A stretch of 64,000 nt of DNA from an uncultured Gammaproteobacteria bacterium (GTDB lineage: Bacteria; Patescibacteriota; Patescibacteriia; UBA9934; GWF2-40-263), in NCBI GenBank assembly GCA_964538435.1, contig CAZIDX010000001.1, positions 139,304 to 203,303 of the forward strand, given 5' to 3'. Made by a program: the position numbers and the translations under genes. Position 1 is the stretch's first letter. Every line of letters starts with the position of its first letter. This document shows positions 821-63,734 of this stretch, piece after piece. Under the pieces are notes generated by a model. It was not told the origin of the DNA. It saw only the letters and a list, made by a program, of their open reading frames with translations, and made no database searches.

Positions 821-2161
821 ATGTCACACCAACCCCCCGCACGACAGGACCAATTCCTGGATGTGCAGATCGTCCTGGGTCAACACACGATCGACCAGGA
901 CACACGACGCGTTTCGATCCTGCTCAAGGTCGAGCCTGCGAACACACCTCGCAACACAGACCGCGCACTCGACTACCGAATGGTCATCGACCGATCCGGT
1001 TCCATGTCGAGCTCAATCGGCCATGCTCACATGTCCCGACTCGAGGCTGCCAAGACGGCTGTCTCCGCGCTCGTCCGCAACCTAGGCGCCATCGATCAGG
1101 CCATGCTCTGCAGCTTCGACGACAAGGGTCGAGTGGATGTCTCCCTGGACCGCATGACCTCTGCGCGAATCAACACGATGTTGCGCAGGCTCGCTTCCAT
1201 GGAGACGGGTAACAGTACAGAGATCTCCAGCGGCGTACGCCTGGCTCTTGCACCGCAGACGCACGACAAGGTCCCCACGCGCCTGATCCTCCTCACCGAC
1301 GGTCAGAGCCACCCGAACGTCCGCAGAGATCACCAGCGACTCCTCGAGCTCGCTGATCGTTCCCGTAAGCTCGGCATCCCCTGGCTCATCTACGGAACCG
1401 GTGTGGACTACGACTTCGAGCTGCTCCAGCAGCTCCAGGCTCGCATCGGCCACGGTTCGTTCTGCAAGCACGTTCTGGACATGACTGGCTTCGAAGCTCA
1501 CCTTCAAGGTGAGCTCGCATTCCATCGCGGAATCGCCATCGAGGGCCTCAAGATCAGCGGTCAGGCCAAGTTCGGCCAGATCACCAAGGTGCTTCACTTC
1601 TGCCCCAGTCAGCAGGAGCTGCCCAACCGCGACGAAACCGACCAGAACAAGCCCTTGCCGCGTGACTACTTCACCCGCGGTGAGTTCCACGATGCTATTG
1701 GCTGCCTCGATCACTTCCGTGGTCAGCAGCTTCTCATCGAGATGGAAGTTCCACGCGTTGGCTGTGGCGTCCTCGACCTCATCGAGTTCAAGCTCGAGGG
1801 TCGTCAGCTCTCACGTGGTCTCCTGCACTTCAGCGAGCGCGTCAGTGCACAGGTCACCGTCGCTGATGATTCCAGCCAGGTCTCCAGCTACAACCCTGAA
1901 GTCCTCCGGGTCTACCAGGAAATGTCAGCTGCCCGCGCTGCCAAGCGTGAGGAGTACGAACGTGCTGCCCAGCTCTACCAGGCAACCGGCAACATGAGAG
2001 CTGCCACCGACATGCAGACCTTGCACCAGATGTCAGTGGCTGGTCACGATCGCACTGGCCTCCACCGCGAGGCGCACACCATGACCGGCGGCTACACCTC
2101 CATGTGCTTCACCGAGGAGATCGGTGTTCTGCACAACCGCGACTCGGACAGCCAACCATGA
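821..2161 (+). CDS. von Willebrand factor type A (vWA) domain protein (G+C-rich cassette)
   Basis: MIDAS-like motif DRSGSMSS, then ...T..., then LLTDGQS. A GAAGG RBS sits 6 nt upstream of the ATG at 821; the ORF-track start at 800 is a TTG. Its stop overlaps the next start in the sequence ATGA at 2158-2161. Confidence 0.7.
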   Translation: MSHQPPARQDQFLDVQIVLGQHTIDQDTRRVSILLKVEPANTPRNTDRALDYRMVIDRSGSMSSSIGHAHMSRLEAAKTAVSALVRNLGAIDQAMLCSFDDKGRVDVSLDRMTSARINTMLRRLASMETGNSTEISSGVRLALAPQTHDKVPTRLILLTDGQSHPNVRRDHQRLLELADRSRKLGIPWLIYGTGVDYDFELLQQLQARIGHGSFCKHVLDMTGFEAHLQGELAFHRGIAIEGLKISGQAKFGQITKVLHFCPSQQELPNRDETDQNKPLPRDYFTRGEFHDAIGCLDHFRGQQLLIEMEVPRVGCGVLDLIEFKLEGRQLSRGLLHFSERVSAQVTVADDSSQVSSYNPEVLRVYQEMSAARAAKREEYERAAQLYQATGNMRAATDMQTLHQMSVAGHDRTGLHREAHTMTGGYTSMCFTEEIGVLHNRDSDSQP

Positions 2162-2760
2162 GTGCGCTCACCTGCCCGGAGTGTGGGACCACTTATCCCA
2201 AAGGCACCCCCATGTGTCTGGATGACGGCCACATCTTCGTCAAGACAGATGCAGGTCAACAGAGCGCTGAGCTTGCAGAGGAGCCTATCCAGCTGCCGGC
2301 CCCGCGCAACGGCAAGCTGGCAAGACTCGAGCCTGGACCGGGTCCCCAGTTCTACATCGATGTGACACATGTCGATGGAACGGACTTCCCGCCAGGAACA
2401 CATCTCCAGCACTTTCCCCTCGAGCATCTCACTCGGGGCGAGCTGCGCGTAGGACGACGCACCAGAGGAAAACGGACACCCTACCAGCCTGAGGTCGATT
2501 TCCTAGACCTCATTCGAGATCACGCACTGGGAGGTCATGTGATCATCTCTCGCCTGCAGGCCACCCTGCTCATGGACGAGAGTGTTCCAGCGATTCGGCA
2601 TCAGCCCGATCAGATCACGACCTGGATACGGCGCTCAGGATCACCTGACAACAGAGCCCTGCGACCAAACCAGGTCGCCAAGCTGCGCCAACGCGACGTC
2701 ATCACATTCGGAAAGCCAGCACTGCGCTACGTGCGCGTCCGTGTTTGGTGGGACGAATAG
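2158..2760 (+). CDS. Zinc-ribbon plus FHA (forkhead-associated) domain protein, translationally coupled to the vWA gene
   Basis: N-terminal CPECG...C ribbon. FHA-like region: GELRVGRR...EVDFLDL...VIISRLQATLLMDES...SGSPDNRALRPNQVAKLRQRDVITFGKPALRYV. The ATG overlaps the upstream stop. Confidence 0.6.
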   Translation: MSALTCPECGTTYPKGTPMCLDDGHIFVKTDAGQQSAELAEEPIQLPAPRNGKLARLEPGPGPQFYIDVTHVDGTDFPPGTHLQHFPLEHLTRGELRVGRRTRGKRTPYQPEVDFLDLIRDHALGGHVIISRLQATLLMDESVPAIRHQPDQITTWIRRSGSPDNRALRPNQVAKLRQRDVITFGKPALRYVRVRVWWDE

Positions 2761-2774
2761 ACGCACAACCCCGC

Positions 2775-2842
2775 ACTCGTTAGAGTCCGGGGTTTTCTAT
2801 TACGCAAATTGAAAACCGAGTCCTTTCAGACCCGGTCGTTTC
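2775..2842. terminator. Back-to-back hairpin terminators separating the convergent genes 2158..2760 and 2843..3577
   Basis: Hairpin aaccccg...cggggtt followed by TTTTCTATTACG (+ strand). Hairpin gaccgggtc...gactcggt followed by TTTTCAATTTG (read on the - strand). Confidence 0.55.
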
Positions 2843-3577
2843 TCAGTAGCCCAGACCGAGAGCATTCTCGATCAGAACATTATGTGAAGCCACGAATCGG
2901 CTTCCGATGTTGTCGCGCTCATCCTGAAGCGCGCGCATGAGACCTTCTTCCCGCAAGCAAGCAGGATTGGATTCGGCCAACGCACTCGCATGCATAAGCG
3001 CTCGCGCCCACTCCTCGAACTTCTCGTCCGTGGGGGCTACAGCCACGCTCAAGTAGCACTTGTACTGCCCAGGCCATTGCACACCCGCCAGTGGGAACTC
3101 ACCGCCAGCATCTGCATCCACACACGCCACGATCTCGTCCACGATGATCGGATCACGGATCTCCTCGTAGAGTTCACGGGTACCAGCGAGAGGACCACCT
3201 TCCGCAGCTTGACGCGTTCCACCGAACAGAGAGAATCGACCGCGACATTCCGGGTTGGGGTGCTTGTGATCCTTCTTCTGCAGCAGAACCGAGTCGAGTG
3301 ATGCGTTCGCGATCACGGTCACAGCTCCGAACAGCCCCATGCGCTCGAACCTCACGAGCATCCAGGACCGAATCGCAGCAGCGCGGTGTTCATTGATCGA
3401 GACACGATCCAGACGACCATTCACCTTGACAGACGCCAGCTGTCCGTTCAAGGACAGCAGAACCGCGTCATCAGCCTCAGGGATACCGAGAAGTCGGCGC
3501 ACCCAGGCGTCCTCACCCTCCTTGGCATGATCCGGGTGTCGCCCCGGAGTCAGCTCGATCGGACAACTCACCAGCAT
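2843..3577 (-). CDS. Hypothetical protein (G+C-rich, 244 aa), convergent with the vWA/FHA pair
   Basis: Complete ORF with an AGGAGG RBS 4 nt upstream. No motif I can assign. Confidence 0.5.
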   Translation of the reverse strand: MLVSCPIELTPGRHPDHAKEGEDAWVRRLLGIPEADDAVLLSLNGQLASVKVNGRLDRVSINEHRAAAIRSWMLVRFERMGLFGAVTVIANASLDSVLLQKKDHKHPNPECRGRFSLFGGTRQAAEGGPLAGTRELYEEIRDPIIVDEIVACVDADAGGEFPLAGVQWPGQYKCYLSVAVAPTDEKFEEWARALMHASALAESNPACLREEGLMRALQDERDNIGSRFVASHNVLIENALGLGY

Positions 3578-3660
3578 GGGACCTCCTTTGCTAGCGGAGC
3601 TAAAACTTAATAAACATTAGACATGATGTCAACCTTTAGGCTATACTTGTGTCTCCTCGC

Positions 3661-4263
3661 ATGGAAAAACATATGGAAAACAAAAAACTCGACTCAGTAG
3701 TCGATTTTCTATTCGAAACCGGAATGCTCGCTCACACCCCACGAAGCGGATTCTTTTTCCTGGGAAGCGGAGAGCAAAGCGTAGCAGAACACATCAACCG
3801 CGCATCGTTTGTAGGATACTGCCTCGCCCAACTCGCAGGAGACGTTGATGTAGGAAAGGTAGTACAACTCTGCCTGTTCCATGACGTATCAGAATCACGC
3901 ATCTCTGACCTCAACTACGTTCACCAGATGTACACAGAACGTCTAGAGGACAAGGCACATGAGGACCTTACTTCTTCCCTACCCTTTGGCGATCATATGA
4001 AGGGCCTAATTGACGAGTATGAAGATCGAGAAACAAAGGAATCAATTCTTGCCAAAGATGCAGACAACATTGAACTGATTCTTTCGCTCAAGGAGCAACT
4101 CGACATTGGCAACGAACGCGCCAAGACCTGGATTCCAAGCGCACTTGAACGACTCAAAAGCGAAGAAGCTAAAATGCTTGGAAAGCGAATCGTGGAGACC
4201 GACTCTGACCGCTGGTGGTTTGCAGACAAGACAGACGACTGGTGGGTCAACCGAAAGAAATAA
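3661..4263 (+). CDS. HD-superfamily phosphohydrolase, YfbR-like 5'-deoxynucleotidase family
   Basis: HD-family motifs: ...AEHINRAS..., then LFHDVSESRISD, then KDADNIELIL. The start is uncertain (GTG at 3649, or ATG at 3661 or 3673). It is followed by the bidirectional terminator aaaaaaccggccttgcggctggtttttt at 4265-4295. Confidence 0.65.
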   Translation: MEKHMENKKLDSVVDFLFETGMLAHTPRSGFFFLGSGEQSVAEHINRASFVGYCLAQLAGDVDVGKVVQLCLFHDVSESRISDLNYVHQMYTERLEDKAHEDLTSSLPFGDHMKGLIDEYEDRETKESILAKDADNIELILSLKEQLDIGNERAKTWIPSALERLKSEEAKMLGKRIVETDSDRWWFADKTDDWWVNRKK

Positions 4264-5275: not shown

Positions 5276-5357
5276 GGTAATGTGAGAATTTCACGAGGTG
5301 GTGGTCATCTATACTTCGAGATGGCCCGGCTCCGCCGAGTGAGATACTCGCATTACC
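5276..5357 (+). repeat. Hairpin-embedded conserved element, copy 1 (core 5296..5336)
   Basis: Core aggtggtggtcATctatacttcgagaTggcccggctccgcc sits inside the locus-specific inverted repeat ggtaatg...cattacc. The stem gtcAtct/agaTggc carries a compensatory change relative to copies 2-4. Confidence 0.7.
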
Positions 5358-13885: not shown

Positions 13886-14198
13886 AGATAATTTTTACAA
13901 ACAAAAACAACCCTTATATATGTCTGAGGACAATGTAATGTCTTTGGGCCTTGTGGATAAAAGTGGCCCTAATCGTGTCGTCATCCATGTAGTTTGGGTC
14001 GTCTGGTCATTTCGTTAACCGATTGGTCATTTTCCATCGGTTTCCAGATCACCAGACAACCATAATTAGCTAAAAAAACGAATTTTCGCCCATAGTATAA
14101 CTTCACTTCACAATTCGGTCAACCCTGATTTTTCATTTTTAAAACACCCTCACCAAACCCCTAACCAACAAAAACCTCAACCACGACCACTTCCCAAA

Positions 14199-14239
14199 GA
14201 TACCACTTAAGGTCCGATCGGCACTTAAATGGTATCAAT
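14199..14239. repeat. Palindromic site, left: GATACCACTTAAG-gtCCGATCGGcac-CTTAAATGGTATCAAT
   Basis: Two 13-nt arms (gataccacttaag / cttaaatggtatc; the arms differ at one position, c vs a) around a central CCGATCGG palindrome. The stop codon of gene 14235..14768 lies inside the right arm. Confidence 0.7.
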
Positions 14240-14768
14240 GTCTTTTTGCTGTATACACACGGACCCAATCTTGATTTCCAACACCTTCAAAGAATTGTGA
14301 CAATGCATCTCCTGCATCAAACCTCGATACCCATACACTTCTCTGAATACAGAAAAAACCAGCCTCCTTAAGAAATTCACGTATATTTTTTCGTAAACCT
14401 CTTTTTGATTCTGGAATATCGAAAACCACCACACAATCTTCTTCTTCGGACAATTCTTCAGCAGCACAAATCTCGAGCTTGAGAGCCTCCAGTCTCCCTA
14501 GATCAGTTAAAGTTATTTCATACTTATCGGCAATTTTATTAATCTTAACCATCTTCTTTTTCTCAAGCCTTCTTAGCTCCCGTCTCTGCAGTTGTTTTTC
14601 TCTTGCATTTCGTATTTCAATCGCACCCTCCAAGCCGTACCTAAAAGCCAATCCTGGCTGATGAAGGTTTTCAAACAATAAATCTGTCGAATGATTGAGT
14701 TGCATCAAAATATCTGATGCTCTTGAAAGATATTGAATTCTTCTTTTTGTTTCTTTGTTAGAGGTCAT
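14235..14768 (-). CDS. Small regulator-like protein with a PaaX/Cas2-fold-like C-terminal half
   Basis: CVVVFDIPESKRGLRKNIREFLKEAGFFCIQRSVWVSRFD resembles the Cas2/PaaX-C beta-alpha-beta core. The N-terminal ~90 aa may be a wHTH. The gene is flanked exactly by the palindromic repeats. Confidence 0.35.
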   Translation of the reverse strand: MTSNKETKRRIQYLSRASDILMQLNHSTDLLFENLHQPGLAFRYGLEGAIEIRNAREKQLQRRELRRLEKKKMVKINKIADKYEITLTDLGRLEALKLEICAAEELSEEEDCVVVFDIPESKRGLRKNIREFLKEAGFFCIQRSVWVSRFDAGDALSQFFEGVGNQDWVRVYTAKRH

Positions 14769-14772
14769 ATGA

Positions 14773-14801
14773 GTGCCGATCGGACCTTAAGTGGTATCAA
14801 T
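14773..14801. repeat. Half-site direct repeat, right: gtgCCGATCGGac-CTTAAGTGGTATCAAT
   Basis: The central 13-mer is the reverse complement of the left copy's central 13-mer. The arm cttaagtggtatc is the exact reverse complement of the left site's left arm. It abuts the start codon at 14766-14768. Confidence 0.7.
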
Positions 14802-14975
14802 ATGGTAGCAATTTTAACTGCTTCAAAACTCGCTATCTGTCAAGGGTTCCGTCTAGACTCTTCTTGAAAACCTAAAATACCGCGTCAAAACACCAAAAAC
14901 GAAAGACGCCCTAGTGAGTTCCTGCTGGCTGCGTGCCAGAGAACCCACCGGGCGTCTCGTTGACCTGCTGGAGGT

Positions 14976-16013
14976 CTAGTTGTCTTCGTTTTCCGACTCC
15001 GAGTAGAATCCGGTCACGAAGTTGGCCTGGAACCAATCAGGGTCTGATCGGTCACGACCCAATTCGAGCTCCTCAACGCATCGATAGAGCATCTCGCCGA
15101 AGTCAATGTCCGGCTGGCCGCTACCCGATTTCCCGTCGCGGTAGAGGTTAGCATACACCTTCCACTGTTCGAGTCGGTCTGCACCTTGCTGAGCCAGCGC
15201 AGGACTGCGGTTACGCGACCAGCGAACTGCGACCAGCAGATCCTGATACAAACGCCTCCACCGAGGTGTACGAAGCACGGCTTTTGCGCGGTCCGTGATG
15301 GCGCGTTTGCGAACCGGCGGAGCCGTCCCAGCAACGTGATCATCACCGTCACCGTGCCTGCGCGAACCAGGCTTTCTTTCCGGCTCCGGCTTCGGCTTCG
15401 GCTCAGGTTCGGGCTCCGGCTCCGGTTTCGGTTTCGGTTTCGGCTCCGGCTCCGGTTTCGGCTCGGGCTCCGGCACAGGTTCGGGCTCCGGCTCAGGTTC
15501 GGGCTCGTCAGACACCACCTTTCTGTCTCTCACCGAACTCAGATCCAGACCTTCGAAAAGATCTACCCGCTTGACCGGCTCGGCATCGTGCATCATGTCC
15601 GCGTCAGTGCCACCAAACGGATCATCTACTTCCTCGTCTGAACCATCACCGTCTCCGGCCTCTGGCTCATCCTTACTCTCTTCGTCGGGTGGTTCTGTCG
15701 GCTCAGGTTCGGGCTCCGGCTCCGGTTTCGGCTCCGGTTCCTCCTCTTCTTCACCCTCCTGCTCAGCCGCACGCAACTTCCCCCACAAATCAATACGGGG
15801 GTCATCTGCATGAGCCTTGATGTACTCGGCCGGATTGTCGTGGAAATCCATGGACTCGTTCCATGCCTCCGCAACACCCAATGCCTCAGCCATGTCCTCA
15901 CCGTCGATCCCATCCTCGTCATCGAGATAGGTGTCGACATGCTCCTCAGTAGCAATGTCGGGATCATCCCCAAACAAAGCCTGAAGGGCATCTTCGAAGC
16001 TGTATTCGGCCAT
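14976..16013 (-). CDS. Highly acidic Pro/Glu/Lys-repeat protein (G+C-rich cassette)
   Basis: Long PEPEPEPEP / [19 protein letters not shown] tracts, an Asp/Glu-rich N-terminus and a basic Arg/Trp-containing C-terminus. GGAGGG RBS before the ATG at 16013; a hairpin terminator lies downstream at ~14895-14945. Confidence 0.6.
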
Positions 16014-16178
16014 TGGGCCCTCCGTTGTGTGTGGTTTGACAGCCAAAATCGTCATCAAGGACGACTTGGGCAACCGTGCAAGATAACACAAATTGACCCT
16101 TTTGTCAACAAAATGAGACAAGATTTGCTTGTTATCTTACTAAATGTTGTTAACTCTCAACATATATGCCAATCACGG

Positions 16179-16207
16179 TTGACAAAATCTCCATTTTCTG
16201 GTATTCT
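16179..16207 (+). promoter_or_regulatory. Near-consensus sigma70-type promoter for gene 16359..18098
   Basis: TTGACA (16179-16184), 17-nt spacer, TATTCT (16202-16207). Confidence 0.5.
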
Positions 16208-16358
16208 GCGCCTCTGGCACTAACATGCCCAAGTCGTCCTTTTTACCAAAAACAGTCTTGGCAAAAGTGTCTTTATAGACATTTCTGCCGAGACTGTTTC
16301 CCAACCCTCAATCAGCGTGTCTCTCGGAGCGCTGCACCCGACCCTAAGGAGGTCAAAC

Positions 16359-18098
16359 ATGGCAACTCAGAACCCACTCGTTCGCGACTCCAGCACCGGG
16401 CGTTTCATCGCCATCGTCGACGACATCGTCCTGCTCATGGCTCATCAGGAACCCGACTTCAATCGCAACCGCGGCAAGGCCATCAAGCGTGTTCGTGCGC
16501 GCATGATCATGGACCCCAAGAACGACAAGCTGCCGATCCGCGACGAGGTCGACTTCCGTCCGGTCCCGGGCGCGAACGCCTCCGGCTTCACCATCTCCTT
16601 CAACGAGAAGGGCATCCCCTTCGTAGACCCCTGCAAGACCATGGGTCTGCGCGCCGAGGCCATGCTGCCCGGCAAGGACGGCAACCTCGTGGAGACCTCG
16701 GTCCGCCCCGCCTTCGTGTGCGACGGCCTGTCCGGGTTCATCCCGTACGTGCAGCGCATCAAGGCCAAGGATGCCCAGGGTGAGCCCGGCACCGACGGCT
16801 ACAAGCCGGCCGTGCACACCTGGACCTCCACCGGCAAGATGCCCTGCATCTTCTTCCAGCCCCCGATCAAGAAGGGCAAGAAGGCCCCGCCGCCCGTGGC
16901 CGTTCCCCTGGGCCTGGCGCGTCCGTTCCTACTGGATGCCTGGAAGACCCTGGTCGAGCACCCGGATCGCCAGCACGCCACCCGCAAGCTCTTCGTGATC
17001 GAGCCGATCGCGAACAACCTGCGTGGCAACAAGCGCCACCTGGTCTTCACCCCGCGCGGCAACCCCTACACCCCGGTGTGGTACAACAAGAGCGCGGACA
17101 AGCTCCGCGATGCGCTCAAGCGCAAGCTCAACGGCGAAGCCAACGTGGTCATCCCCAGCCCGGATGGTCAGGTCCTGACCCACCTCTTCGGTAAGGTCGT
17201 GACCCCGATCACGCACAAGACCGAGACCCCGGTCGAGTACGACCTGCCCGGTGGCAAGACCGGCTGCGTCCCCTGCGTGTTCCGCATCCAGGAGCAGAGC
17301 GGTGTGGTCAAGGCCATCTACAAGGGTGAGAAGCGCCACATGGGCAACCTGGTCGCACAGGACCTGAGCTTGGACGACCTCGAGTTCAACGCGCTCACGG
17401 CCCTGGGCCTGACCATGGAGACGGCCATGACCGGCCGTGCTCTGCGCAAGCTCAAGAACAAGCTCCTGCGCGGCCCCCAGGACCAGACCAACCCCCTGTA
17501 CATGCAGGCGGTCGAGTCCTCGGGTCTCGAGCCCGGCCACCACAAGGCACAGGCCAGTGGCCCCATGCGCTTCATCGCTGACTCCGCGGTCGAGCAGGTC
17601 GAGACTCAGCTCAACGAGGAGATCAACCTGATCGCCGGCAAGCTGATCATGCCCGGTCACCGCGACAAGCCCGAACTGGTGACGCTCCTCGGCGAACTGG
17701 ACGGCACCAAGCTTCGCGAGGCCGCGTTCCAGCGCGAGGGTGCCTGCATCCTGGCCACCTGGGTCGCCAAGACCCAGAACTGGGACGAGTTCAGCTGGGG
17801 CTCCGAGCTGCACCGCCGCGTGCGCTACAAGGTCCTCATGAGCCTGGCCAAGGCCGCCGACCTCAAGATGGCCCCCAAGCCCAAGCCCAAGCCCGCCCCG
17901 GAGCCCACCAACGGTTCCGGCTCCGCGGATCAGGGCTCCGAGGGTGGCTCCAACACGCCCAAGGACGGTGGCAATCAGAAGGCCGCCAGCGACTCCGAGG
18001 CCCCGGCCGAGGAGACCCCTCGCGAGCGCAAGAACCGTCTCGCCCGCGAGCGCCGCGCCAAGGCCAAGGCCAAGAAGCTGGCCGAAGAGAGTGCTTAG
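16359..18098 (+). CDS. Hypothetical 580-aa protein with a Lys/Ala/Glu-rich disordered C-terminal tail (G+C-rich cassette)
   Basis: AGGAGG RBS 6 nt before the ATG at 16359. No recognisable catalytic motif. The C-terminus ...KPKPKPAPEP...RERKNRLARERRAKAKAKKLAEESA suggests nucleic-acid or polyanion binding. Confidence 0.55.
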   Translation: MATQNPLVRDSSTGRFIAIVDDIVLLMAHQEPDFNRNRGKAIKRVRARMIMDPKNDKLPIRDEVDFRPVPGANASGFTISFNEKGIPFVDPCKTMGLRAEAMLPGKDGNLVETSVRPAFVCDGLSGFIPYVQRIKAKDAQGEPGTDGYKPAVHTWTSTGKMPCIFFQPPIKKGKKAPPPVAVPLGLARPFLLDAWKTLVEHPDRQHATRKLFVIEPIANNLRGNKRHLVFTPRGNPYTPVWYNKSADKLRDALKRKLNGEANVVIPSPDGQVLTHLFGKVVTPITHKTETPVEYDLPGGKTGCVPCVFRIQEQSGVVKAIYKGEKRHMGNLVAQDLSLDDLEFNALTALGLTMETAMTGRALRKLKNKLLRGPQDQTNPLYMQAVESSGLEPGHHKAQASGPMRFIADSAVEQVETQLNEEINLIAGKLIMPGHRDKPELVTLLGELDGTKLREAAFQREGACILATWVAKTQNWDEFSWGSELHRRVRYKVLMSLAKAADLKMAPKPKPKPAPEPTNGSGSADQGSEGGSNTPKDGGNQKAASDSEAPAEETPRERKNRLARERRAKAKAKKLAEESA

Positions 18099-18356
18099 CC
18101 CAGCGCCTAGCGCGCTACACCACCGACACCAAATCGGTGACGAAAGGCCCGGTGAGGACCTGGAAGACGAACGTGTCTCCCAGGCCCTCCCGGCGCCTTT
18201 TCTATTTCCCAACCAAAACCACACACACAACCGCAACCACAAGCACAAACACAAGCACAACCCCCATGGAGATGGCGACCTAAGGGGCTCAACGCCCCGC
18301 CAGGTCGCAGCCCCCACTACCCCACCTATAGGCCCAGGACGCCAAACGGCCGTTCG

Positions 18357-18447
18357 AGGTGTTGTGAGAAAAATCACGAGGTGGTGGTCGTCTATCCTGC
18401 GAGACGGCCCGGCTCCGCCTCGTTATTTTTCTCACAACACCTCGTGG
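18357..18447 (+). repeat. Hairpin-embedded conserved element, copy 2 (core 18379..18419)
   Basis: The core is flanked by the perfect inverted repeat gtgttgtgagaaaaat / atttttctcacaacac and by cacgagg / cctcgtg. Confidence 0.75.
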
Positions 18448-18555
18448 CCACCCCAAGCCCCCATAGAAAGATCCGAGCAAGGTTCAAGCAAAGGCGCAAC
18501 CAATTAAAAGGAAAGGAAACAAAAAGAAAAAACCGGCACAGAGCCGGTCTTATTG

Positions 18556-22860: not shown

Positions 22861-22934
22861 GTGCAAGCATTACACAAGGTGGTGGTCGTCTATCCTGCGA
22901 GACGGCCCGGCTCCGCCGTGTGGAATGATTGCAC
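22861..22934 (+). repeat. Hairpin-embedded conserved element, copy 3 (core 22877..22917)
   Basis: Core identical to copy 2. Flanked by the imperfect inverted repeat gtgcaagcatt...aatgattgcac. Confidence 0.7.
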
Positions 22935-24869: not shown

Positions 24870-25040
24870 ATGACCACCTCAGAAATCACAAGGACTGAGA
24901 CAAGACTTTGCCTCACATCACTAGTACTGGCCGCAACCGCCGGTCTGTCAATCACAAACGAGACAACAGCCTGGATCTGTCCAATCGCACTCTTCTTCAT
25001 GGTGCTGATTGTCTTCTGCATCGCGCTGATGCCCTCATGA
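24870..25040 (+). CDS. Possible small hydrophobic peptide (57 aa)
   Basis: MTTSEITRTETRLCLTSLVLAATAGLSITNETTAWICPIALFFMVLIVFCIALMPS. No SD, and followed by the hairpin gacgaccttcccctgggaggtcgtTTTCGATTTC. Weak call. Confidence 0.25.
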   Translation: MTTSEITRTETRLCLTSLVLAATAGLSITNETTAWICPIALFFMVLIVFCIALMPS

Positions 25041-25147
25041 GCTTACGCACAGCTCAGCACGAGACGACCTTCCCCTGGGAGGTCGTTTTCGATTTCTAGA
25101 CCATTTCATATACACGTCGATCGTCACATATATGAAAAGACTTGCTC

Positions 25148-25176
25148 TTGACACAACTGCTTTTCCAACATATTCT
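25148..25176 (+). promoter_or_regulatory. Near-consensus promoter for the MNRK micro-ORF pair
   Basis: TTGACA (25148-25153), 17-nt spacer, TATTCT (25171-25176). Confidence 0.5.
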
Positions 25177-25214
25177 CCCTTTCCTGACTCATGACGAGTC
25201 AAAGGAGGAAGCGA

Positions 25215-25325
25215 ATGAATCGCAAGGGTATGACCCAGGTCCAAGCACTGGCCCTGGTGGGTGGACTGTTCGGAATCGCCATGATGATCGCCTGCGCAAG
25301 CTGGATGATCTCCACAGCGATCTAG
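25215..25325 (+). CDS. Micro-ORF 1: 36-aa hydrophobic peptide MNRKGMTQVQALALVGGLFGIAMMIACASWMISTAI
   Basis: AGGAGG RBS 6 nt upstream. Single TM-like segment with small-xxx-small motifs. Confidence 0.45.
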   Translation: MNRKGMTQVQALALVGGLFGIAMMIACASWMISTAI

Positions 25326-25339
25326 ACCAAGGAGTAACC

Positions 25340-25375
25340 ATGAATCGCAAAGCCTTCACCCACCTGGACGACTAG
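25340..25375 (+). CDS. Micro-ORF 2: 11-aa peptide MNRKAFTHLDD
   Basis: AAGGAG RBS 5 nt upstream. Shares the MNRK N-terminus with micro-ORF 1. The terminator gacgacctctcggggtcgtTTTCTAATTATTTTT follows at ~25385-25420. Confidence 0.35.
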   Translation: MNRKAFTHLDD

Positions 25376-25442
25376 ACAACACGAAAGACGACCTCTCGGG
25401 GTCGTTTTCTAATTATTTTTCAAGTGTTATCGTCAAGAACCC

Positions 25443-25471
25443 TTGACAATAACACCAAAAAAATGTATATT
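25443..25471 (+). promoter_or_regulatory. Near-consensus promoter for the pilin-like gene
   Basis: TTGACA (25443-25448), 17-nt spacer, TATATT (25466-25471). Confidence 0.5.
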
Positions 25472-25505
25472 CGTTCTCTTAGCTATCCTGCTAAGGGAAA
25501 GGAAA

Positions 25506-25934
25506 ATGAGGATGTTAGGAGAGCTGAGGTCACACCTCAGAAAGGTCAAGAGCGAGAGAAGGGGCTTCACCTTGATCGAACTCATGATCGTACTCGCAAT
25601 CGTCGGGATCATCCTGGCCATCGTCGTCGGACTCATCATCTTCTTCGTCATCGGTAAGAAGGCGCTGCCCGCGGCCAAGAGCCAAATGGTTACCGACATC
25701 AACGCGATCGAGTGGGTCGAGGACGAACTCGACTACACCAACGTGCGGCTCATCGAGAGCTACCGCACCAACCCCCAGGGCGACCTGGGATGCGAGCAGG
25801 TCGACGACGCCGGTTTCAAGCTGATCGGCACAGACACGGACAACATCGAACACACCATCGAAATCTGCTGCCTGGGTTCGCCAGGAAGCAAGCCTCGATG
25901 CAACCTGGTCAACAGATCCGCAGAAGGGACCTAG
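25506..25934 (+). CDS. Type IV pilin / pseudopilin-like protein (class III signal peptide)
   Basis: ...RRGFTLIELMIVLAIVGIILAIVV..., i.e. the prepilin-peptidase GFTLIE cleavage/methylation motif followed by a hydrophobic helix. Confidence 0.7.
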   Translation: MRMLGELRSHLRKVKSERRGFTLIELMIVLAIVGIILAIVVGLIIFFVIGKKALPAAKSQMVTDINAIEWVEDELDYTNVRLIESYRTNPQGDLGCEQVDDAGFKLIGTDTDNIEHTIEICCLGSPGSKPRCNLVNRSAEGT

Positions 25935-25937
25935 ACT

Positions 25938-26399
25938 ATGTTCGGACTCATCCTCGCTGTCATCGGATTCATGTTCCTGGCTATCACCGGACACCCGCCC
26001 GAGGCCATGATCACCACGAGCACCCTGCTCTTCTGGTGGTACGTGGTGTGGCAGTGCGTCGGCGCCGTCTTCCTGGTGATCGGGATCATCACGATCCTCA
26101 CCACGGGATCTGTCGGAGGTTTCGCAACCGGAGCAACACTCGGACGACTCGGCGGAGCCATTCTCGGTGGCTTGATCGGCTCACTGGGAGGATTCGGACT
26201 CGCCGCGCTGTGCGTCTTCAGCTTCGCACTGAAGACCGTCCTACTGTGCGGCGGCTCCTGGCTCGTCATGCACAGCGGCTCCCCATCCATGGAGAGCCTG
26301 AGCGAGTTCAACTCGCTGTACCTGTACGGAGGAATCGCAATGGTCGCCATCGGCGCCATTTTCTTCTCCGGACGCTCGAGCTCCTCGAGCGACGACTAG
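25938..26399 (+). CDS. Glycine-zipper-rich integral membrane protein (153 aa)
   Basis: Repeated GxxxG motifs (GGFATGATLGRLGGAILGGLIGSLGGFGLAAL) and a Ser-rich C-terminus. The ATG lies 4 nt after the pilin stop. Confidence 0.5.
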   Translation: MFGLILAVIGFMFLAITGHPPEAMITTSTLLFWWYVVWQCVGAVFLVIGIITILTTGSVGGFATGATLGRLGGAILGGLIGSLGGFGLAALCVFSFALKTVLLCGGSWLVMHSGSPSMESLSEFNSLYLYGGIAMVAIGAIFFSGRSSSSSDD

Positions 26400-26569
26400 C
26401 GCCCGGAGGCGCGTGGCTGAACGTTGTATTTATTGAAAAACGGATTCCTCTGGAGTGTGTTTCTAAATAGGCAACCGAGTCACAATGACGGAATCGAAAG
26501 ACGACCCCCTTGGGTCGTCTCTTTCAATTTTGGTGAATTTATTTCGTAGGTACGAACAAAATTCACCAA

Positions 26570-26806
26570 CTACAATTCAAGTAATTCCTCAAGCTTTGCC
26601 TTATCAAACCCCACCACAAGCTCTTCACCAACCTCAATCACCGGCACCCCCATCTGACCAGACTTGTGAATCATCTCCTGGGCTTTTTCTTGATCTGTGC
26701 TCACATCAACATCCGCAAACTCAACATTCTTTTCATTTAGAAACTCCTTCACCTGAATGCAAAACGGGCAGGTTGGAGTTGAATAGACAGTAACAGTCAT
26801 AAGCAT
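26570..26806 (-). CDS. Glutaredoxin/NrdH-like small redoxin
   Basis: CPFC active site in a 78-aa thioredoxin-fold protein. Confidence 0.75.
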   Translation of the reverse strand: MLMTVTVYSTPTCPFCIQVKEFLNEKNVEFADVDVSTDQEKAQEMIHKSGQMGVPVIEVGEELVVGFDKAKLEELLEL

Positions 26807-26808
26807 GG

Positions 26809-28314
26809 TTAAACGTTTTTAAGAAGTTCAATGAGCATGCGAACTCCGTGTCCGGTTGCTCCTTTCTTAGTATACGAGTTATAAGCACGATCTGCGAACC
26901 CTGGCCCAGCAATATCAATATGAGCCCACGGCGTCTTCTCAACAAAATTACTCAAGAAGAGCCCTGCCGTTATCGCACCTCCCCAACCATTTCCAAGATT
27001 CTTTACATCTGCGATCTCAGACTTAATCAGCGCTGCATAATTCTTCTCAAGCGGAAGAGGCCACATTTTTTCACCGGATGTCTTTGCGCTTCCCAAGATT
27101 TTCTCTGACAACTTCTCATCATCGCTCATAACCGCAGAAATTTCCTCACCAAGAGCCACAACACAAGCACCCGTAAGCGTAGCAAGGTCAACAATGAAAT
27201 CCGGCTTCAGCTTCTCAGCGTACACAAGCATATCTGCGAGCGTAAGGCGCCCCTCAGCATCAGTATTTAACACCTCAACCGTTTTCTTATTCATCATGCG
27301 CAAGACATCATCTGGACGAATCGCGCTCCCTGAAGGCATATTTTCAACTGGGGCAAAAATACCATGCACTTCACACTTTGGTGCAACCTGATCAATCACA
27401 CGAAACAATCCAAGCACAGCAGCACTCCCAGCCATATCAGCCTTCATGCTTGTCATTGACTTTGATGGCTTGAGTGACAACCCACCAGAGTCAAACGTAA
27501 CAGCCTTCCCAACCAAACAAACCTTTTTCTTTGTTACAACCTTTGGTTTGTAAATCATGTGAACAAGATAAACCGGCTTCTCAGAACCCTGCCCCACACC
27601 AAGAATCCCTCCGGCTCCCATGCGCTCAAGACGTTCCTTATCAAAGACCTTGATCTTAATCTCTCCCTTTCCCTTTGCAATCTTCCGTGCCTCTTCCACA
27701 AGCTTATCAGGACACATATCTCGCCCAGGCGTGTTCACAAGGTCACGAGCAAGCATGGTCCCAACCGCCCCAATACGCCCGTCTTCGATTCCTCGATCGA
27801 TCGCGCGCACCAAGCGTCCATCTTCTGTCACAAGTGTCACGCTCGCAGGTGCCTTGCCTTTCGCTTTCTTGTACTCAACAAATTCATAATTCGCTAGCAT
27901 GAACCCCTCACAAATCGCTTGCGCACAATCATGCGCAGCAATCTCTTGATCAAGGCCGATGAGATCCATTGCAACCGTTTTCACTTTCAAGCTCTTAATC
28001 GCATTCAGCACGCTCCCAGCTGCTGCCCGGACCGTCTCTGCGCTCAATTCCTTTCTCTTTCCAAGCCCAACAACAAGAACGCGCGTTGCAGGAATCTGTG
28101 CAAACGCTCGTGACAAATAAATCGCTCCAAGCTTTGCCTTGAACTGATCCTGTTTCATATGCTTTGCAAGCCAGCCATCTACGCCAAGATTCACTTGCTC
28201 AAAAACACCCTTAGGCTCTTTCTCTCCCTCAAACGCACCAACCACAAGCACATCACATTTTTGTTCAAGAACGGCACCCTTTTGTACATTGATTTCCATA
28301 GTTTCAAAAAACAC
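26809..28314 (-). CDS. pepA: Leucyl aminopeptidase, M17 family
   Basis: NTDAEGRL signature, VGKAVTFDSGG and other M17 catalytic-domain motifs. 501 aa. Confidence 0.9.
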   Translation of the reverse strand: MFFETMEINVQKGAVLEQKCDVLVVGAFEGEKEPKGVFEQVNLGVDGWLAKHMKQDQFKAKLGAIYLSRAFAQIPATRVLVVGLGKRKELSAETVRAAAGSVLNAIKSLKVKTVAMDLIGLDQEIAAHDCAQAICEGFMLANYEFVEYKKAKGKAPASVTLVTEDGRLVRAIDRGIEDGRIGAVGTMLARDLVNTPGRDMCPDKLVEEARKIAKGKGEIKIKVFDKERLERMGAGGILGVGQGSEKPVYLVHMIYKPKVVTKKKVCLVGKAVTFDSGGLSLKPSKSMTSMKADMAGSAAVLGLFRVIDQVAPKCEVHGIFAPVENMPSGSAIRPDDVLRMMNKKTVEVLNTDAEGRLTLADMLVYAEKLKPDFIVDLATLTGACVVALGEEISAVMSDDEKLSEKILGSAKTSGEKMWPLPLEKNYAALIKSEIADVKNLGNGWGGAITAGLFLSNFVEKTPWAHIDIAGPGFADRAYNSYTKKGATGHGVRMLIELLKNV

Positions 28315-31179: not shown

Positions 31180-31218
31180 TCAAACAAAAAACTCTCCGGA
31201 CTTCCGGAGAGTTTTTGA

Positions 31219-39806: not shown

Positions 39807-40004
39807 AAAAGTTCACATTAATCTCAATGTTCCAATGGTATACCATTTGCCAAGCCAATTCTACTAGCCCTCATGTCTATCTGCCAAAAAGCTAAGAAAT
39901 AAACATTTCTTAAAAGAGAAGACACACCCCCGAAGAGGTGTGTCCGTCTGGCGTAGAGCCAGCTTGCCCGCCATAGCTCGTCAGAGCGACGGTGGGTCGC
40001 GTTG

Positions 40005-40919
40005 CTAGGCCGCGGTCGCCTGCTGACCAGCGCGTCGCTTGGCCTCGGCAGCAGTGCGTGCGAGCGCGTCATCGAGAGAACGCTCGGCCTTACGCTTACT
40101 TGCTCGGTCCTCCTCGAACTCCTCGGCCATGCTGTCGAGCTTGGCCTTGAGCTCATCCATCCGGCCTTCATCCACGCTGCTCGCGAAGATGCCGGCCAGG
40201 ATGTAGTCCAGGAACGCTGGCGTGCTACGAATCTGCGCGACCCGCTGCTCGTACTTGGCCTTCACAGCCTCGTACTCGGCACGGATCTTGACCGCGTATT
40301 CCGAATCGTCTCCTTCGTACCGCTTCACGATCTTACTCAGCTCGTGCACGGCCACTGCCAGCTTTGCTTCGTCCTCAATGTAGGACGGGAGGCAGGTGCC
40401 CACGAGCCACTCGATGCGGTCACTGATCGAACCAGCTACCATCCCGGCCTCGGGTGCGGCCTTGCGAATCTGCTCGATACCGCGACGCACAGCACCACGA
40501 ACCGAGAGCATACGCAGCCGGCGAAGCGGGGCGAACTTGAGCGAGAGCCATTTCCAGCCACGCTTGAGCAGTCCACCGGTTCCCTGCAGCGCAGCCTGAG
40601 CCGTGAAGCTCAGCACGATGACCACGAGGCCTTGTAGGAAGCTGATCAGGTCCATCCCCCACACACCGACCCCGAAGAGAATCGCAGTGATCGCGTAGAA
40701 CACGGTGGAGTAGATCCAGCCGTAGCCAGAGAACACACCGTCAGGCAGCTTGGTCTCTCCCTTGTTCTTGAGGAACAACTGAGTCGACTCGTGCACCTGC
40801 TTGATGTTGCGGAACATGAACACGGCGCCCATGAACGTTGTCAGGCCCATGAGCCCGAGGTAGAGCATGGTCTGCGTGAACGTAACCATATGCGAGAGGA
40901 AAGTGATGGTAATGTCCAT
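40005..40919 (-). CDS. 3-TM membrane protein with a long cytoplasmic coiled-coil tail (G+C-rich cassette), divergent from the PNP-like gene
   Basis: GGAGGG RBS before the ATG at 40919. Three N-terminal hydrophobic helices, then a charged Ala/Glu/Lys/Arg-rich helical C-terminus. Confidence 0.55.
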   Translation of the reverse strand: MDITITFLSHMVTFTQTMLYLGLMGLTTFMGAVFMFRNIKQVHESTQLFLKNKGETKLPDGVFSGYGWIYSTVFYAITAILFGVGVWGMDLISFLQGLVVIVLSFTAQAALQGTGGLLKRGWKWLSLKFAPLRRLRMLSVRGAVRRGIEQIRKAAPEAGMVAGSISDRIEWLVGTCLPSYIEDEAKLAVAVHELSKIVKRYEGDDSEYAVKIRAEYEAVKAKYEQRVAQIRSTPAFLDYILAGIFASSVDEGRMDELKAKLDSMAEEFEEDRASKRKAERSLDDALARTAAEAKRRAGQQATAA

Positions 40920-40967
40920 CTGATGCCCTCCACGGCTTGTTGTTTCAGGAAGCTTGGAAACAAGAAA

Positions 40968-40992
40968 AACTACCATAAAACGGTAGTTTTGT
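40968..40992. promoter_or_regulatory. Perfect 9-bp-arm palindrome aaaactacc-ataaaac-ggtagtttt inside the divergent promoter region
   Basis: Lies between the putative -35 (TTGACA) and -10 (TAGTTT) of the minus-strand gene 40005..40919, so it is operator-like. Confidence 0.4.
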
Positions 40993-41056
40993 CAAGCAAT
41001 AAGTATGATATTTTACCAATAATCCGCCAATTCTAAAGAAAACTGACATTTTGAAG

Positions 41057-41084
41057 TTGACACTCCATCAAAAACCGCTAGAAT
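41057..41084 (+). promoter_or_regulatory. Near-consensus promoter for the PNP-like gene
   Basis: TTGACA (41057-41062), 16-nt spacer, TAGAAT (41079-41084). Confidence 0.5.
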
Positions 41085-41121
41085 GCCCATCTGCCCAAAC
41101 CAAGACAGGAGGTCTTCGCGC

Positions 41122-42027: not shown

Positions 42028-42093
42028 TCGGTAGGGTTTTCTATTTCAAACAAACAGAAAACCGCCCAGACTTACGTCAAAGGCGGCGCGTAG

Positions 42094-53217: not shown

Positions 53218-53279
53218 CCCTCACAAAAAACAAGGTGGTGGTCGTCTATTCTGCGAGACGGCCCGGCTCCGCCGAGGGA
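53218..53279 (+). repeat. Hairpin-embedded conserved element, copy 4 (core 53233..53273)
   Basis: The core differs from copies 2 and 3 at one position (tattctg vs tatcctg). Flanked by ccctc...gaggg. Confidence 0.7.
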
Positions 53280-53368
53280 ACTTATTTCAGTACTACAGTG
53301 AGCGTATTGACAAAACCCTCATTTTGTGGCACTATTCCTCACCACTGTTTCCCGAAAGGAGCAGAAAC

Positions 53369-63710: not shown

Positions 63711-63734
63711 GAGGTTCTCAGGGGTTCGGGGTTG

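What the first reader, a model, noticed from the sequence alone, without database searches (positions are those of the whole stretch)
14199..14801. Small regulator-like gene bracketed exactly by palindromic direct repeats (CCGATCGG core plus TTAARTGGTATCAAT)
The left site at 14199-14239 is a full palindrome GATACCACTTAAG-gtCCGATCGGcac-CTTAAATGGTATCAAT. The right site at 14773-14801 repeats the central 13-mer as its reverse complement, plus the arm CTTAAGTGGTATCAAT. The 177-aa ORF lying between them has its stop codon inside the left site, and its start codon (within a CATATG) abuts the right site. The ORF's C-terminal half resembles the Cas2/PaaX-C fold. This geometry, with the gene precisely delimited by 27-40-bp related sites, fits three readings: attL/attR-like ends of a minimal integrated or invertible cassette, a toxin/regulator addiction cassette, or tightly auto-regulated operator pairs. 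The module sits just upstream of the ATPase operon promoter region.
Basis: seen in the sequence. Interest (0 to 1): 0.6.

Follow-up and report, generated by a model that had tools for sequence, protein, structure and literature searches.

The report
Small repressor gene bracketed by operators
A 177-residue DNA-binding regulator gene in a candidate-phyla-radiation bacterium is tightly flanked by two copies of a long palindrome that is most likely its own binding site, and the same bracket recurs in about 80% of its distant relatives, suggesting an undescribed but probably conventional family of self-controlled regulators.

Summary
A 33-nt inverted repeat (94%; 14199-14231 / 14766-14798) brackets ORF 14235-14768(-). 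The stop codon lies inside the 38-bp palindrome on the left. The start codon lies 4 nt from the right site.

The protein has a winged helix followed by a Cas2-like domain. It matches Pfam PaaX_M at 6e-14, and its best fold match is E. coli PaaX. It lacks the PaaX C-terminal domain.

The bracket is family-wide. In 32 of 39 homologous loci, one palindrome sits at the start codon and a near-identical one sits at the stop codon. Arms are 11-31 bp and the centre is CGATCG, CGGCCG or CGTACG. These loci come from Patescibacteria wherever the source organism is named, with protein identity down to 28%. Arms differ between loci.

Matching "orphan" sites sit at other promoters and genes (uvrA, htpX, pilin-operon promoters). 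The arms show no sign of selection for RNA pairing and no consistent U-tract follows them. I found no relative in viral contigs and no recombinase domain in the protein.

Best reading: a minimal PaaX-type autorepressor with two cognate operators. The role of the downstream operator is unresolved.

A related genome lacks the whole ~0.76-kb module. The module has therefore been gained or lost as a unit, but the breakpoints lie outside the sites, so the sites are not att-like ends.

The parts
14766..14801 (.). Upstream site O1. It has a full outer arm plus the CCGATCGG centre. The inner arm is degenerate and overlaps the start codon (CATATG).
   Evidence: I1, D2. Core-N8-ATG spacing recurs in at least 12 homologous loci.
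14235..14768 (-). Gene for a 177-aa protein with a winged helix and a Cas2-like (PaaX_M) domain: a 'mini-PaaX' regulator.
   Evidence: Pfam PaaX_M 6e-14. NCBIfam cas2, partial match. AF2 model pLDDT 76.7. Foldseek top hit E. coli PaaX 8a39. Family of 1,595 50%-identity clusters at E<=1e-10.
14199..14239 (.). Downstream site O2. A full 38-bp palindrome (13-bp arms, CCGATCGG centre) plus AAT. It contains the TGA stop codon.
   Evidence: I3. As sense RNA it folds at -21.9 kcal/mol, z -5.0. Stop-N12-15-core spacing recurs in at least 12 loci.
14802..14810 (-). Predicted extended -10 element TGcTACCAT of the regulator's own promoter. The predicted transcription start is near 14795, at the outer edge of O1.
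   Evidence: The TGnTAnnAT block is conserved at the same position in WIN, L002, L041, L043 and L039, which lie in different genomic contexts. This is inference, with no transcript data.
14838..14843 (-). Conserved TTGACA box 30 nt upstream of the -10 element. Its role is unclear.
   Evidence: Invariant in all five paralogous or orthologous loci aligned.
14143..14198 (-). G+T-rich tail (on the sense strand) following O2. It is part of the module shared with paralogues.
14143..14899 (.). Extent of the whole module (promoter, O1, gene, O2, tail) that is absent from the orthologous position in relative L073. Boundaries are approximate.
   Evidence: Three-way alignment of WIN, L002 and L073. L073 gene map and sequence.
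14094..14122 (-). Context: the V-type ATPase operon promoter TTGACC-17-TATACT. The O2 centre lies about 130 nt upstream of the predicted transcription start.
   Evidence: The promoter is conserved in L002 and also in L073, which lacks the module.

Best explanation
The ORF encodes a minimal PaaX-type transcription factor. [quoted passage not shown] It lacks the PaaX C-terminal ligand domain. The two flanking sites are its cognate operators: long palindromes with a CGATCG centre and paralogue-specific arms.

O1 spans the predicted transcription start, the ~27-nt leader and the start codon. A bound dimer would therefore block initiation or promoter clearance, giving autorepression as PaaX does at its Px promoter.

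O2 begins at the stop codon and is a second, better-formed copy. I infer that it acts as an auxiliary operator. Possible roles are cooperative binding or looping with O1 562 bp away, or a roadblock that insulates the regulator's transcript from neighbouring genes. It may also give the mRNA a 3' hairpin.

The whole unit (promoter, O1, gene, O2, tail) behaves as a self-contained module. It has been duplicated into different contexts and gained or lost as a block.

Shown here: the repeat, the domain architecture, the family-wide bracket, the orphan sites at other promoters, and the indel.

Inferred: DNA binding, repression, and any function of O2.
For: **Protein**
- Pfam PaaX_M 6e-14.
- The AF2 model shows a winged helix followed by a beta-alpha-beta-beta-alpha-beta domain.
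- The best PDB fold hits are PaaX 8a39 and the PaaX-like 3l09, followed by Cas2 structures.

**Precedent**
- The E. coli PaaX operator is TGATTC-N27-GAATCA, a 39-bp palindrome. PaaX sterically represses its own promoter (PMC9493321).
- O2 here is 38 bp.

**Family-wide bracket**
- In 32 of 39 loci, upstream/downstream site identity over 34 nt exceeds the 95th percentile of between-locus comparisons. The means are 0.75 within loci and 0.44 between loci.
- 31 well-formed palindromes with a CGATCG, CGGCCG or CGTACG centre fall in about 14 kb of gene-flank windows. Only 2 fall in about 253 kb elsewhere.

**Position**
- A conserved extended -10 element lies just upstream of O1 in five loci.
- Core-N8-ATG spacing is fixed in at least 12 loci.

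**Regulon-like orphan sites**
- L007 has a third site with the same arms between uvrB and uvrA, plus one before uvrC.
- Two other contigs of the assembly that holds L002 carry L002-type arms, centred about -63/-64 from TTGACA-N17/18-TAATGT promoters.
- The htpX start codon is embedded in a site at core+8.

**DNA-level rather than RNA-level**
- Arm mismatches are G:T 4, A:C 6 and other 19.
- O1 in the window does not fold.
- No U-tract bias follows the downstream palindromes.
Against: - No binding, expression or transcript data exist. The promoter and transcription start are predictions.
- A second operator placed exactly at the stop codon is not typical of autoregulated repressors. In about 12 of 36 loci the next gene is convergent, so O2 cannot be the operator of a downstream promoter in those loci.
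- No helical phasing of the O1-O2 distance was detected (n=17, p about 0.56).
- Within-locus near-identity of the two sites extends to positions unlikely to be protein contacts (for example 29/29 in L013 and 38/41 in L035). This suggests gene conversion or recent duplication, not selection by a repressor alone.
- The recognition helix is rather conserved among paralogues whose arms differ.
- The V-ATPase promoter and leader are intact in a relative without the module. A role for O2 in ATPase control is therefore unsupported.
Confidence: 0.6

Rival explanations
1. Mobile or invertible cassette. The palindromes are recombination or cleavage sites. The protein's winged helix recognises the arms and its Cas2-like domain acts as a nuclease. 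The gene homes into, excises from or inverts between its cognate palindromes, by a logic like that of REP/RAYT systems or dif modules.
For: - The gene is multi-copy per genome, each copy with its own site pair (and sites).
- Solo sites exist.
- Homologues 61-67% identical sit in different contexts: recG, V-ATPase and others.
- A relative lacks the module at the orthologous place.
- The two sites are near-identical within loci.
- The Asp of the Cas2 beta-1 motif is invariant (FDIPE).
- The site pair is inverted in the window and direct in L002.
Against: - The indel breakpoints lie about 100 nt and 55 nt outside the sites. No solo site or target duplication is seen in the empty locus.
- Homology among paralogous loci continues past O1 into a shared promoter.
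- No recombinase or transposase domain matched, and no relative was found in viral contigs.
- Solo-site density is low: 0 in the 64-kb window and about 1 per 100 kb in fetched loci. That is unlike REP elements.
- Synteny is stable between the window and L002 at 69% protein identity.
Confidence: 0.12
2. RNA-level control. The palindromes act as hairpins, or as a 5'-3' panhandle, in the regulator's own mRNA. The protein binds or cuts them, on the precedent that Cas2 and VapD proteins were reported as RNases. This would set mRNA stability, processing out of polycistronic transcripts, or translation, since the start codon lies in the stem.
For: - O2 folds strongly as sense RNA (-21.9 kcal/mol, z -5.0) and better than the antisense strand (-16.5), owing to one G-U pair.
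- O1 and O2 could pair over 26-33 nt.
- Start codons are embedded in arms at fixed spacing.
- Several sites lie inside operons, for example between the regulator gene and uvrC, and between lemA and htpX.
Against: - Across the family, arm mismatches are not enriched for G-U on the sense strand: 4 G:T against 6 A:C and 19 others.
- O1 in the window has no hairpin (z +0.75).
- The predicted transcription start lies inside the outer arm, so the full hairpin would not be transcribed.
- Orphan sites lie upstream of promoters, where they are not expected to be transcribed with the gene.
- The closest structural relative is a DNA-binding repressor.
Confidence: 0.12
3. Generic palindromic elements, such as terminator-like or REP-like sequences of these genomes. 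On this view they tend to sit at gene boundaries and have no specific relation to the protein.
For: - Most hits of the metagenome pattern scan (27 of 29) have no family gene nearby.
- Some downstream palindromes lie between convergent genes, where terminators are expected.
Against: - Well-formed sites are roughly 290-fold enriched at the flanks of this gene family.
- Arms co-vary with the locus.
- No U-tract follows them.
- Upstream copies sit at a fixed distance from the family's start codon.
- The window has its own ordinary terminator hairpins and a different dispersed hairpin element.
Confidence: 0.08
4. Toxin-antitoxin or addiction module. The Cas2/VapD-like domain is a toxin and the winged helix is a fused antitoxin or autoregulator.
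For: - The Cas2-like domain matches Cas2 profiles at E about 1e-7.
- It is a small, autoregulated-looking, patchily distributed gene.
Against: - There is no partner gene.
- PADLOC returns only partial Cas2 hits.
- The same domain is the dimerisation motif in PaaX regulators (PMC9493321).
- Neighbours are housekeeping genes in conserved arrangements such as uvrA-gene-uvrC.
Confidence: 0.03

Closest known systems
PaaX, the phenylacetyl-CoA-responsive repressor of E. coli and Pseudomonas (PDB 8a39, 3l09)
   Same: - Winged helix followed by a Cas2-like middle domain (Pfam PaaX_M match, best fold hit).
- A long palindromic operator of about 39 bp.
- Repression of its own promoter by steric hindrance (PMC9493321).
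   Different: - 177 aa against about 305-316 aa. The C-terminal ligand-binding domain is absent, so there is no obvious effector site.
- The Pfam PaaX N-terminal model is not matched.
- The operator centre is conserved (CGATCG / CGGCCG / CGTACG), rather than only the outer hexamers.
- The operators bracket the gene.
- Found in Patescibacteria next to DNA-repair, ATPase and other housekeeping genes, not paa genes.
Repressor genes bracketed by their own operators with DNA looping (lambda cI between OR and OL; lac O1/O2; gal OE/OI)
   Same: A repressor or first gene lies between two cognate operator sites a few hundred bp to a few kb apart. Auxiliary operators lie downstream of the promoter. (From my own knowledge of these systems.)
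   Different: - Here the second site sits exactly at the stop codon of a 0.53-kb gene and is nearly identical to the first.
- No evidence for tetramerisation or looping. No helical phasing was seen.
REP elements with their RAYT genes (REP-associated tyrosine transposases)
   Same: A small gene flanked by copies of its cognate palindrome. Solo copies lie elsewhere in intergenic DNA. Several gene/palindrome classes occur per genome. (PMC3733652 abstract for REPs; RAYT logic from my own knowledge.)
   Different: - The protein is not an HUH/Y1 enzyme.
- Solo copies are rare (about 1 per 100 kb in the DNA held here), not hundreds per genome.
- There is no GTAG/CGTC tag.
- The indel breakpoints are not at the palindromes.
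Cas2 (CRISPR adaptation protein)
   Same: The C-terminal domain is homologous to the first half of Cas2 (TIGR01573, 30.1 bits; fold hits to type II-A Cas2). The gene lies between two copies of a palindromic repeat, superficially like a spacer.
   Different: - Only model positions 4-48 of 96 match.
- The domain is fused to a winged helix.
- No CRISPR array was found in 64 kb.
- Neighbours are housekeeping genes.

Membership tests
PaaX-type regulators | Cas2-like middle (dimerisation) domain, Pfam PF20803 PaaX_M | tested here: met
   52.3 bits against a gathering cut-off of 24, E 6e-14, residues 112-175. All 15 homologues carry PF20803.
PaaX-type regulators | [quoted passage not shown] | tested here: inconclusive
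   No Pfam PaaX N-terminal hit. There is only a weak DUF6293_C winged-helix hit (E 0.0024). The AF2 model shows helices followed by a beta-hairpin wing at residues 16-87, with low confidence for residues 33-43. Foldseek aligns 169 columns to PaaX 8a39, but with TM 0.39.
PaaX-type regulators | C-terminal helical domain that binds the effector (Pfam PaaX_C) | tested here: not met
   The protein ends at residue 177, directly after the Cas2-like domain. There is no PaaX_C hit. Family members are 150-220 aa.
PaaX-type regulators | Binds a long palindromic operator and represses its own promoter | not testable with these tools
   The geometry is compatible: a 38-bp palindrome against TGATTC-N27-GAATCA, and O1 overlaps the predicted transcription start. 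Binding was not measured.
Cas2 of CRISPR-Cas | Full-length Cas2 fold and sequence | tested here: inconclusive
   TIGR01573 scores 30.1 bits (cut-off 24.5), but only model positions 4-48 of 96 match. PDB profile hits are E 0.06-0.1. Fold hits to Cas2 have TM (target-normalised) 0.45-0.60.
Cas2 of CRISPR-Cas | Encoded next to cas1 and a CRISPR array | tested here: not met
   No interspaced repeat array was found in the 64-kb window. Neighbours in 39 loci are housekeeping genes. A dedicated cas1 search of the window was not run.
Site-specific recombination cassette (attL/attR, integron attC, Xer dif module) | A recombinase acting on the sites, encoded in or near the element | tested here: not met
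   The only gene between the sites has no integrase, recombinase or transposase domain. The immediate neighbours, where annotated, are housekeeping or unknown genes.
Site-specific recombination cassette (attL/attR, integron attC, Xer dif module) | Presence/absence polymorphism with breakpoints at the sites, and an empty locus retaining one site | tested here: not met
   L073 lacks the module, but the breakpoints are about 100 nt beyond O1 and about 55 nt beyond O2. No CGATCG palindrome remains.
REP/RAYT-like system | High genomic copy number of solo palindromes of the same class | tested here: inconclusive
   There are 0 further sites in 64 kb, and 2-3 solo sites in about 253 kb of fetched loci. 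No complete genome was available.
Intrinsic terminator | G+C-rich hairpin followed by a U-tract on the sense strand | tested here: not met
   O2 is followed by UCUUUGGG. The terminator scan does not call it. Across 23 downstream sites, 9 have at least 5 T after the palindrome and 9 have at least 5 A before it, so there is no strand bias.

The most novel reading that the evidence does not exclude
The palindromes are substrates rather than mere binding sites. A winged-helix/Cas2-fold protein would recognise and cut or synapse its own flanking palindromes, which have a restriction-site-like centre (CGATCG, CGGCCG or CGTACG). That would make each gene plus its sites a self-propagating or invertible element: a new class of palindrome-associated selfish or domesticated module in reduced CPR genomes, with solo palindromes as its footprints.
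Probability: 0.1. Interest if true: 0.8.

Novelty: new variant of a known kind. Interest (0 to 1): 0.5.

Why it matters
Candidate-phyla-radiation bacteria have tiny genomes, and little is known about how they regulate genes. This work points to a large family of ~175-aa two-domain proteins. A profile search found 1,595 clusters (at 50% identity) at E<=1e-10. Public records name them inconsistently as hypothetical protein, Cas2 or PaaX.

For each member, the likely DNA target can be read straight from the gene's own flanks. That makes regulons directly predictable and testable, and several are suggestive. The gene sits between uvrA and uvrC in five loci, next to recG or radA in five more, and next to V-type and P-type ATPases in others.

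The strict bracket (start codon inside one palindrome, stop codon abutting a near-identical one) is not the usual layout for an autorepressor and remains unexplained. It could reflect looping or insulation, or something less conventional.

It also cautions against annotating these genes as Cas2.

Tried and rejected
- **Exact-protein look-up of the 177-aa product:** not on record. The database holds the 156-aa version (P0001). The P0003 look-up also failed.
- **Rfam on the whole window:** no hits. **tRNA scan:** none.
- **RNA-hairpin hypothesis:** tested by wobble asymmetry and rejected as the general explanation.
- **Intrinsic-terminator reading of downstream sites:** tested by U-tract counts and rejected.
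- **DNA-looping signature:** the helical-phasing (Rayleigh) test on 17 site pairs was uninformative.
- **Phage or defence origin:** PHROGs gave nothing significant. PADLOC gave only partial Cas2 hits. The viral-contig scan found no relatives.
- **Literature:** searches combining PaaX with Cas2 and palindromes, CGATCG with Patescibacteria, Patescibacteria with uvrA and regulon, and Cas2-like with winged helix found no description of this architecture.
- **Metagenome pattern scan:** chance alone would give roughly as many hits in a collection of that size (my estimate, about 30). Only the extension of palindromy beyond the pattern marks most hits as real. At least one (L046, next to a TetR-like gene in G+C-rich DNA) is probably unrelated.
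- **Rfam on 18 orphan-site loci:** found only tRNAs.
- **Junction repeats:** a search for target-site duplications or terminal repeats at the indel junctions found none of at least 10 nt.
- **Not attempted:** covariation between recognition-helix residues and arm sequence, because phylogenetic confounding with about 40 loci would make it uninterpretable.
Full report
**1.

Reading 13900-15100 shows the left site at 14199-14239 (GATACCACTTAAG GTCCGATCGGCA CTTAAATGGTATC AAT). It shows the right site at 14773-14801 (GTGCCGATCGGACC TTAAGTGGTATCAAT).

The repeat finder reports the pair as a 33-nt inverted repeat at 94% (14199-14231 / 14766-14798) and as a 26-nt direct repeat at 88%. The left site is itself a palindrome.

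Over the whole 64-kb window this is the second-longest inverted repeat. The 14-nt centre and the 13-nt arm occur nowhere else in the window.

ORF 14235-14768 on the minus strand is 177 aa. Its stop lies inside the left site and its ATG lies 4 nt from the right site.

Public annotation starts the protein at Met22. The first 21 residues are nevertheless conserved at protein level in L002, L041 and L043. The long form is therefore the likely product.

**2. The protein**

- Pfam gives PaaX_M ("PaaX central Cas2-like domain") at E 6e-14 for residues 112-175. It gives only a weak winged-helix hit in the N-terminal half.
- NCBIfam and PADLOC Cas2 models match only the first half of Cas2.
- An AlphaFold model (pLDDT 76.7) shows helices plus a beta-hairpin wing at residues 16-87. 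A beta-alpha-beta-beta-alpha-beta domain follows at residues 110-175.
- Its best match among solved structures is E. coli PaaX (8a39, E 2.8e-4). A PaaX-like regulator (3l09) comes next, then Cas2 proteins.
- A review of the phenylacetate pathway gives three relevant facts. PaaX has a winged helix, a dimerisation motif and a C-terminal domain. Its operator is TGATTC-N27-GAATCA. It represses its own promoter by steric hindrance (PMC9493321).

The protein here stops after the Cas2-like domain, so it is a two-domain "mini-PaaX". A profile search of 1.84 billion representative proteins finds 1,595 clusters at E<=1e-10. Those listed are almost all 150-220 aa.

**3. The bracket is a property of the family, not of this locus**

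The closest syntenic relative is L002, with 69% protein identity. It has the same position upstream of the V-ATPase operon. It also has a repeat just before the ATG and starting at the stop codon. That repeat has a different sequence and direct orientation: GAGGTCGyTAAAGGCACGATCGGTCC.

I fetched 35 more distant loci from species-representative genomes (28-45% identity). Their records are labelled Patescibacteria or Uhrbacteria, or carry generic or "Gammaproteobacteria" MAG labels. Several genomes hold two or three paralogues.

A script compared the 180 nt around each start with the 180 nt around each stop. Most loci carry a palindrome centred 9-55 nt before the start. They carry a near-identical one centred 3-56 nt after the stop.

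- Arms are 11-31 bp and often perfect.
- The 6-bp centre is CGATCG, less often CGGCCG or CGTACG.
- Arm sequences differ from locus to locus.
- Over 34 nt, within-locus identity averages 0.75 against 0.44 between loci. In 32 of 39 loci it exceeds the between-locus 95th percentile.
- Well-formed palindromes with these centres number 31 in about 14 kb of flank windows. There are 2 in about 253 kb of the remaining DNA.
- Spacing is stereotyped. Core-N8-ATG occurs in at least 12 loci, so the start codon is part of the inner arm. Stop-N12-15-core also occurs in at least 12 loci.

**4. DNA or RNA?**

If the palindromes worked as sense-strand RNA hairpins, imperfect arm positions should favour G-U. 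They do not: G:T 4, A:C 6, other 19.

In the window, O2 folds well as RNA (-21.9 kcal/mol, z -5.0). O1 does not fold (z +0.75).

Downstream palindromes are not followed by U-tracts more often than they are preceded by A-tracts (9 of 23 each). The terminator scan does not call O2. The sites therefore look like double-stranded DNA elements.

**5. Position relative to promoters**

I aligned the upstream regions of five loci that share 61-69% protein identity but lie in different contexts. These are WIN and L002 before the V-ATPase operon, L041 and L043 before recG, and L039 elsewhere.

The alignment shows a conserved block ctcTTGACA ... GCAG ... TGnTAnnAT, an extended -10 element, ending 5-8 nt before the outer arm of O1. 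In the window this is TGcTACCAT at 14810..14802.

That predicts a transcription start near 14795 and a leader of about 27 nt made up of O1 itself. A protein bound at O1 would occlude the start site. This step is inference, because no transcript data were available.

**6. Sites away from the gene**

- In L007 the arrangement is uvrB, site, uvrA, site, regulator, site, uvrC. All three sites belong to one arm family.
- The uvrA-regulator-uvrC arrangement recurs in five loci. recG or radA are neighbours in five more. Other neighbours include P-type ATPases, GlmS, a Mur ligase, ClpB, SHMT and iPGM.
- A metagenome scan for YTTAAG-N3-CGATCG-N3-CTTAAR returned 29 loci. Only two have a family gene beside the site.
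- Two of these loci come from the same assembly as L002 and carry L002-like arms (GGTCGCTTAAGG...). They are centred about 63-64 nt upstream of the predicted start of TTGACA-N17/18-TAATGT promoters.
- One site has the htpX start codon at core+8.
- One site with arms like the window's (TACCATTTAAG) lies about 100 nt upstream of a predicted rpmF transcription start that falls at the ATG (leaderless).

This is what a small regulon would look like. The caveat is that chance alone would give a similar number of pattern hits in a collection of that size (my estimate). Only the palindromy beyond the pattern marks most as real.

**7. What the downstream site does is unresolved**

In about 12 of 36 loci the next gene is convergent. 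The stop-codon site therefore cannot generally be the operator of a downstream promoter. It belongs to the regulator gene's 3' end.

No helical phasing of the O1-O2 distance was detected.

Near-identity of the two copies often extends across the whole palindrome. Between the orthologues WIN and L002, many substitutions are shared by both copies within each genome. That indicates concerted evolution there. L041 and L043 do not show it.

Looping, roadblock or insulation, and gene conversion between the copies all remain possible.

**8. Presence or absence**

One relative (L073, 64% identity) keeps the synteny: TatD, a 540-aa gene, a 293-aa gene, then the V-ATPase operon. It has only 331 nt where the window has the regulator module.

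A three-way alignment shows that about 757 bp of the window (roughly 14143-14899) is missing. The missing block comprises the promoter block, O1, the gene, O2 and the G+T-rich tail. The upstream terminator, the V-ATPase promoter and its structured leader are conserved.

No palindrome remains in the empty locus. The breakpoints are about 100 nt and 55 nt outside the sites, and no junction repeats were found.

The module is thus gained or lost as a block, and paralogues show it has been copied into new contexts. The sites are internal to the unit, not its ends. No recombinase-like domain matched the protein and no viral relatives were found.

**9. Verdict**

The feature is real and far from chance. 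The most economical explanation is a minimal PaaX-type autorepressor with two cognate operators, one covering its start and one abutting its stop. It forms a compact, portable module (confidence about 0.6).

The cassette reading survives only in weakened form: a module-level indel with no role shown for the sites. The RNA-hairpin and addiction readings are disfavoured.

I found no description of this architecture in the searchable literature. I rate it a new variant of a known kind, of moderate interest. The unexplained stop-codon operator and the Cas2 fold leave room for a less conventional mechanism.

Noticed in passing
window 5285-5352, 18355-18444, 22866-22933, 53222-53289, 61070-61170: A five-copy dispersed hairpin element of about 90-110 nt. 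It has a conserved apical core (AGGTGGTGGTCGTCTATCCTGCGAGACGGCCCGGCTCCGCC). Its long stems differ between copies but stay paired: 18 of 37 predicted pairs show changes on both sides. There is no Rfam match. It may be a structured small RNA or a REP-like element.
   Followed up: partly
window 13886-14090 (minus strand): A leader of about 200 nt lies between the V-ATPase promoter (14122..14094) and the first gene. It folds into a long hairpin (z -3.2). It is conserved in L002 and in L073, more strongly than the neighbouring regulator gene. No Rfam hit. It is a candidate cis-regulatory RNA of the V-type ATPase operon.
   Followed up: partly
window ~14900-18500 (also 1000-4000, 25000-27000, 40000-43000, 63000-64000): Islands of 55-66% G+C lie in a ~44% G+C background, with a sharp boundary just upstream of the regulator module. 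The island next to the module encodes proteins with long Pro-Glu/Pro-Lys repeats (tandem 6-nt repeat at 15379-15506) and no Pfam family. The arrangement is syntenic in L002 and L073.
   Followed up: partly
L006, L007, L010, L018, L021 (uvrA-regulator-uvrC); L005, L014, L034, L041, L043 (recG / radA neighbours): About a quarter of the family's loci sit among DNA-repair genes. In L007, cognate palindromes lie before uvrA, the regulator gene and uvrC. This hints at a DNA-damage-related regulon in Patescibacteria controlled by this family.
   Followed up: partly
window 14705-14768; protein P0001: Public gene calls start this gene (and P0004, P0006) at an internal Met, giving 156 aa. They miss a conserved 21-residue N-terminus and hide the fact that the start codon abuts the palindrome. 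Some sources name relatives 'Cas2', which is likely a misannotation.
   Followed up: yes
L052 2772-2809: The rpmF (ribosomal protein L32) gene appears to be leaderless. A TTGCAT-N16-TATACT promoter ends 7 nt before the ATG. An orphan palindrome with arms like the window's lies about 100 nt upstream.
   Followed up: no
window 16250-16299 and 31186-31216: Two other long palindromes: a 25-nt-arm imperfect one centred at 16274 and a terminator-like hairpin at 31201. They are unrelated in sequence to the CGATCG sites.
   Followed up: no
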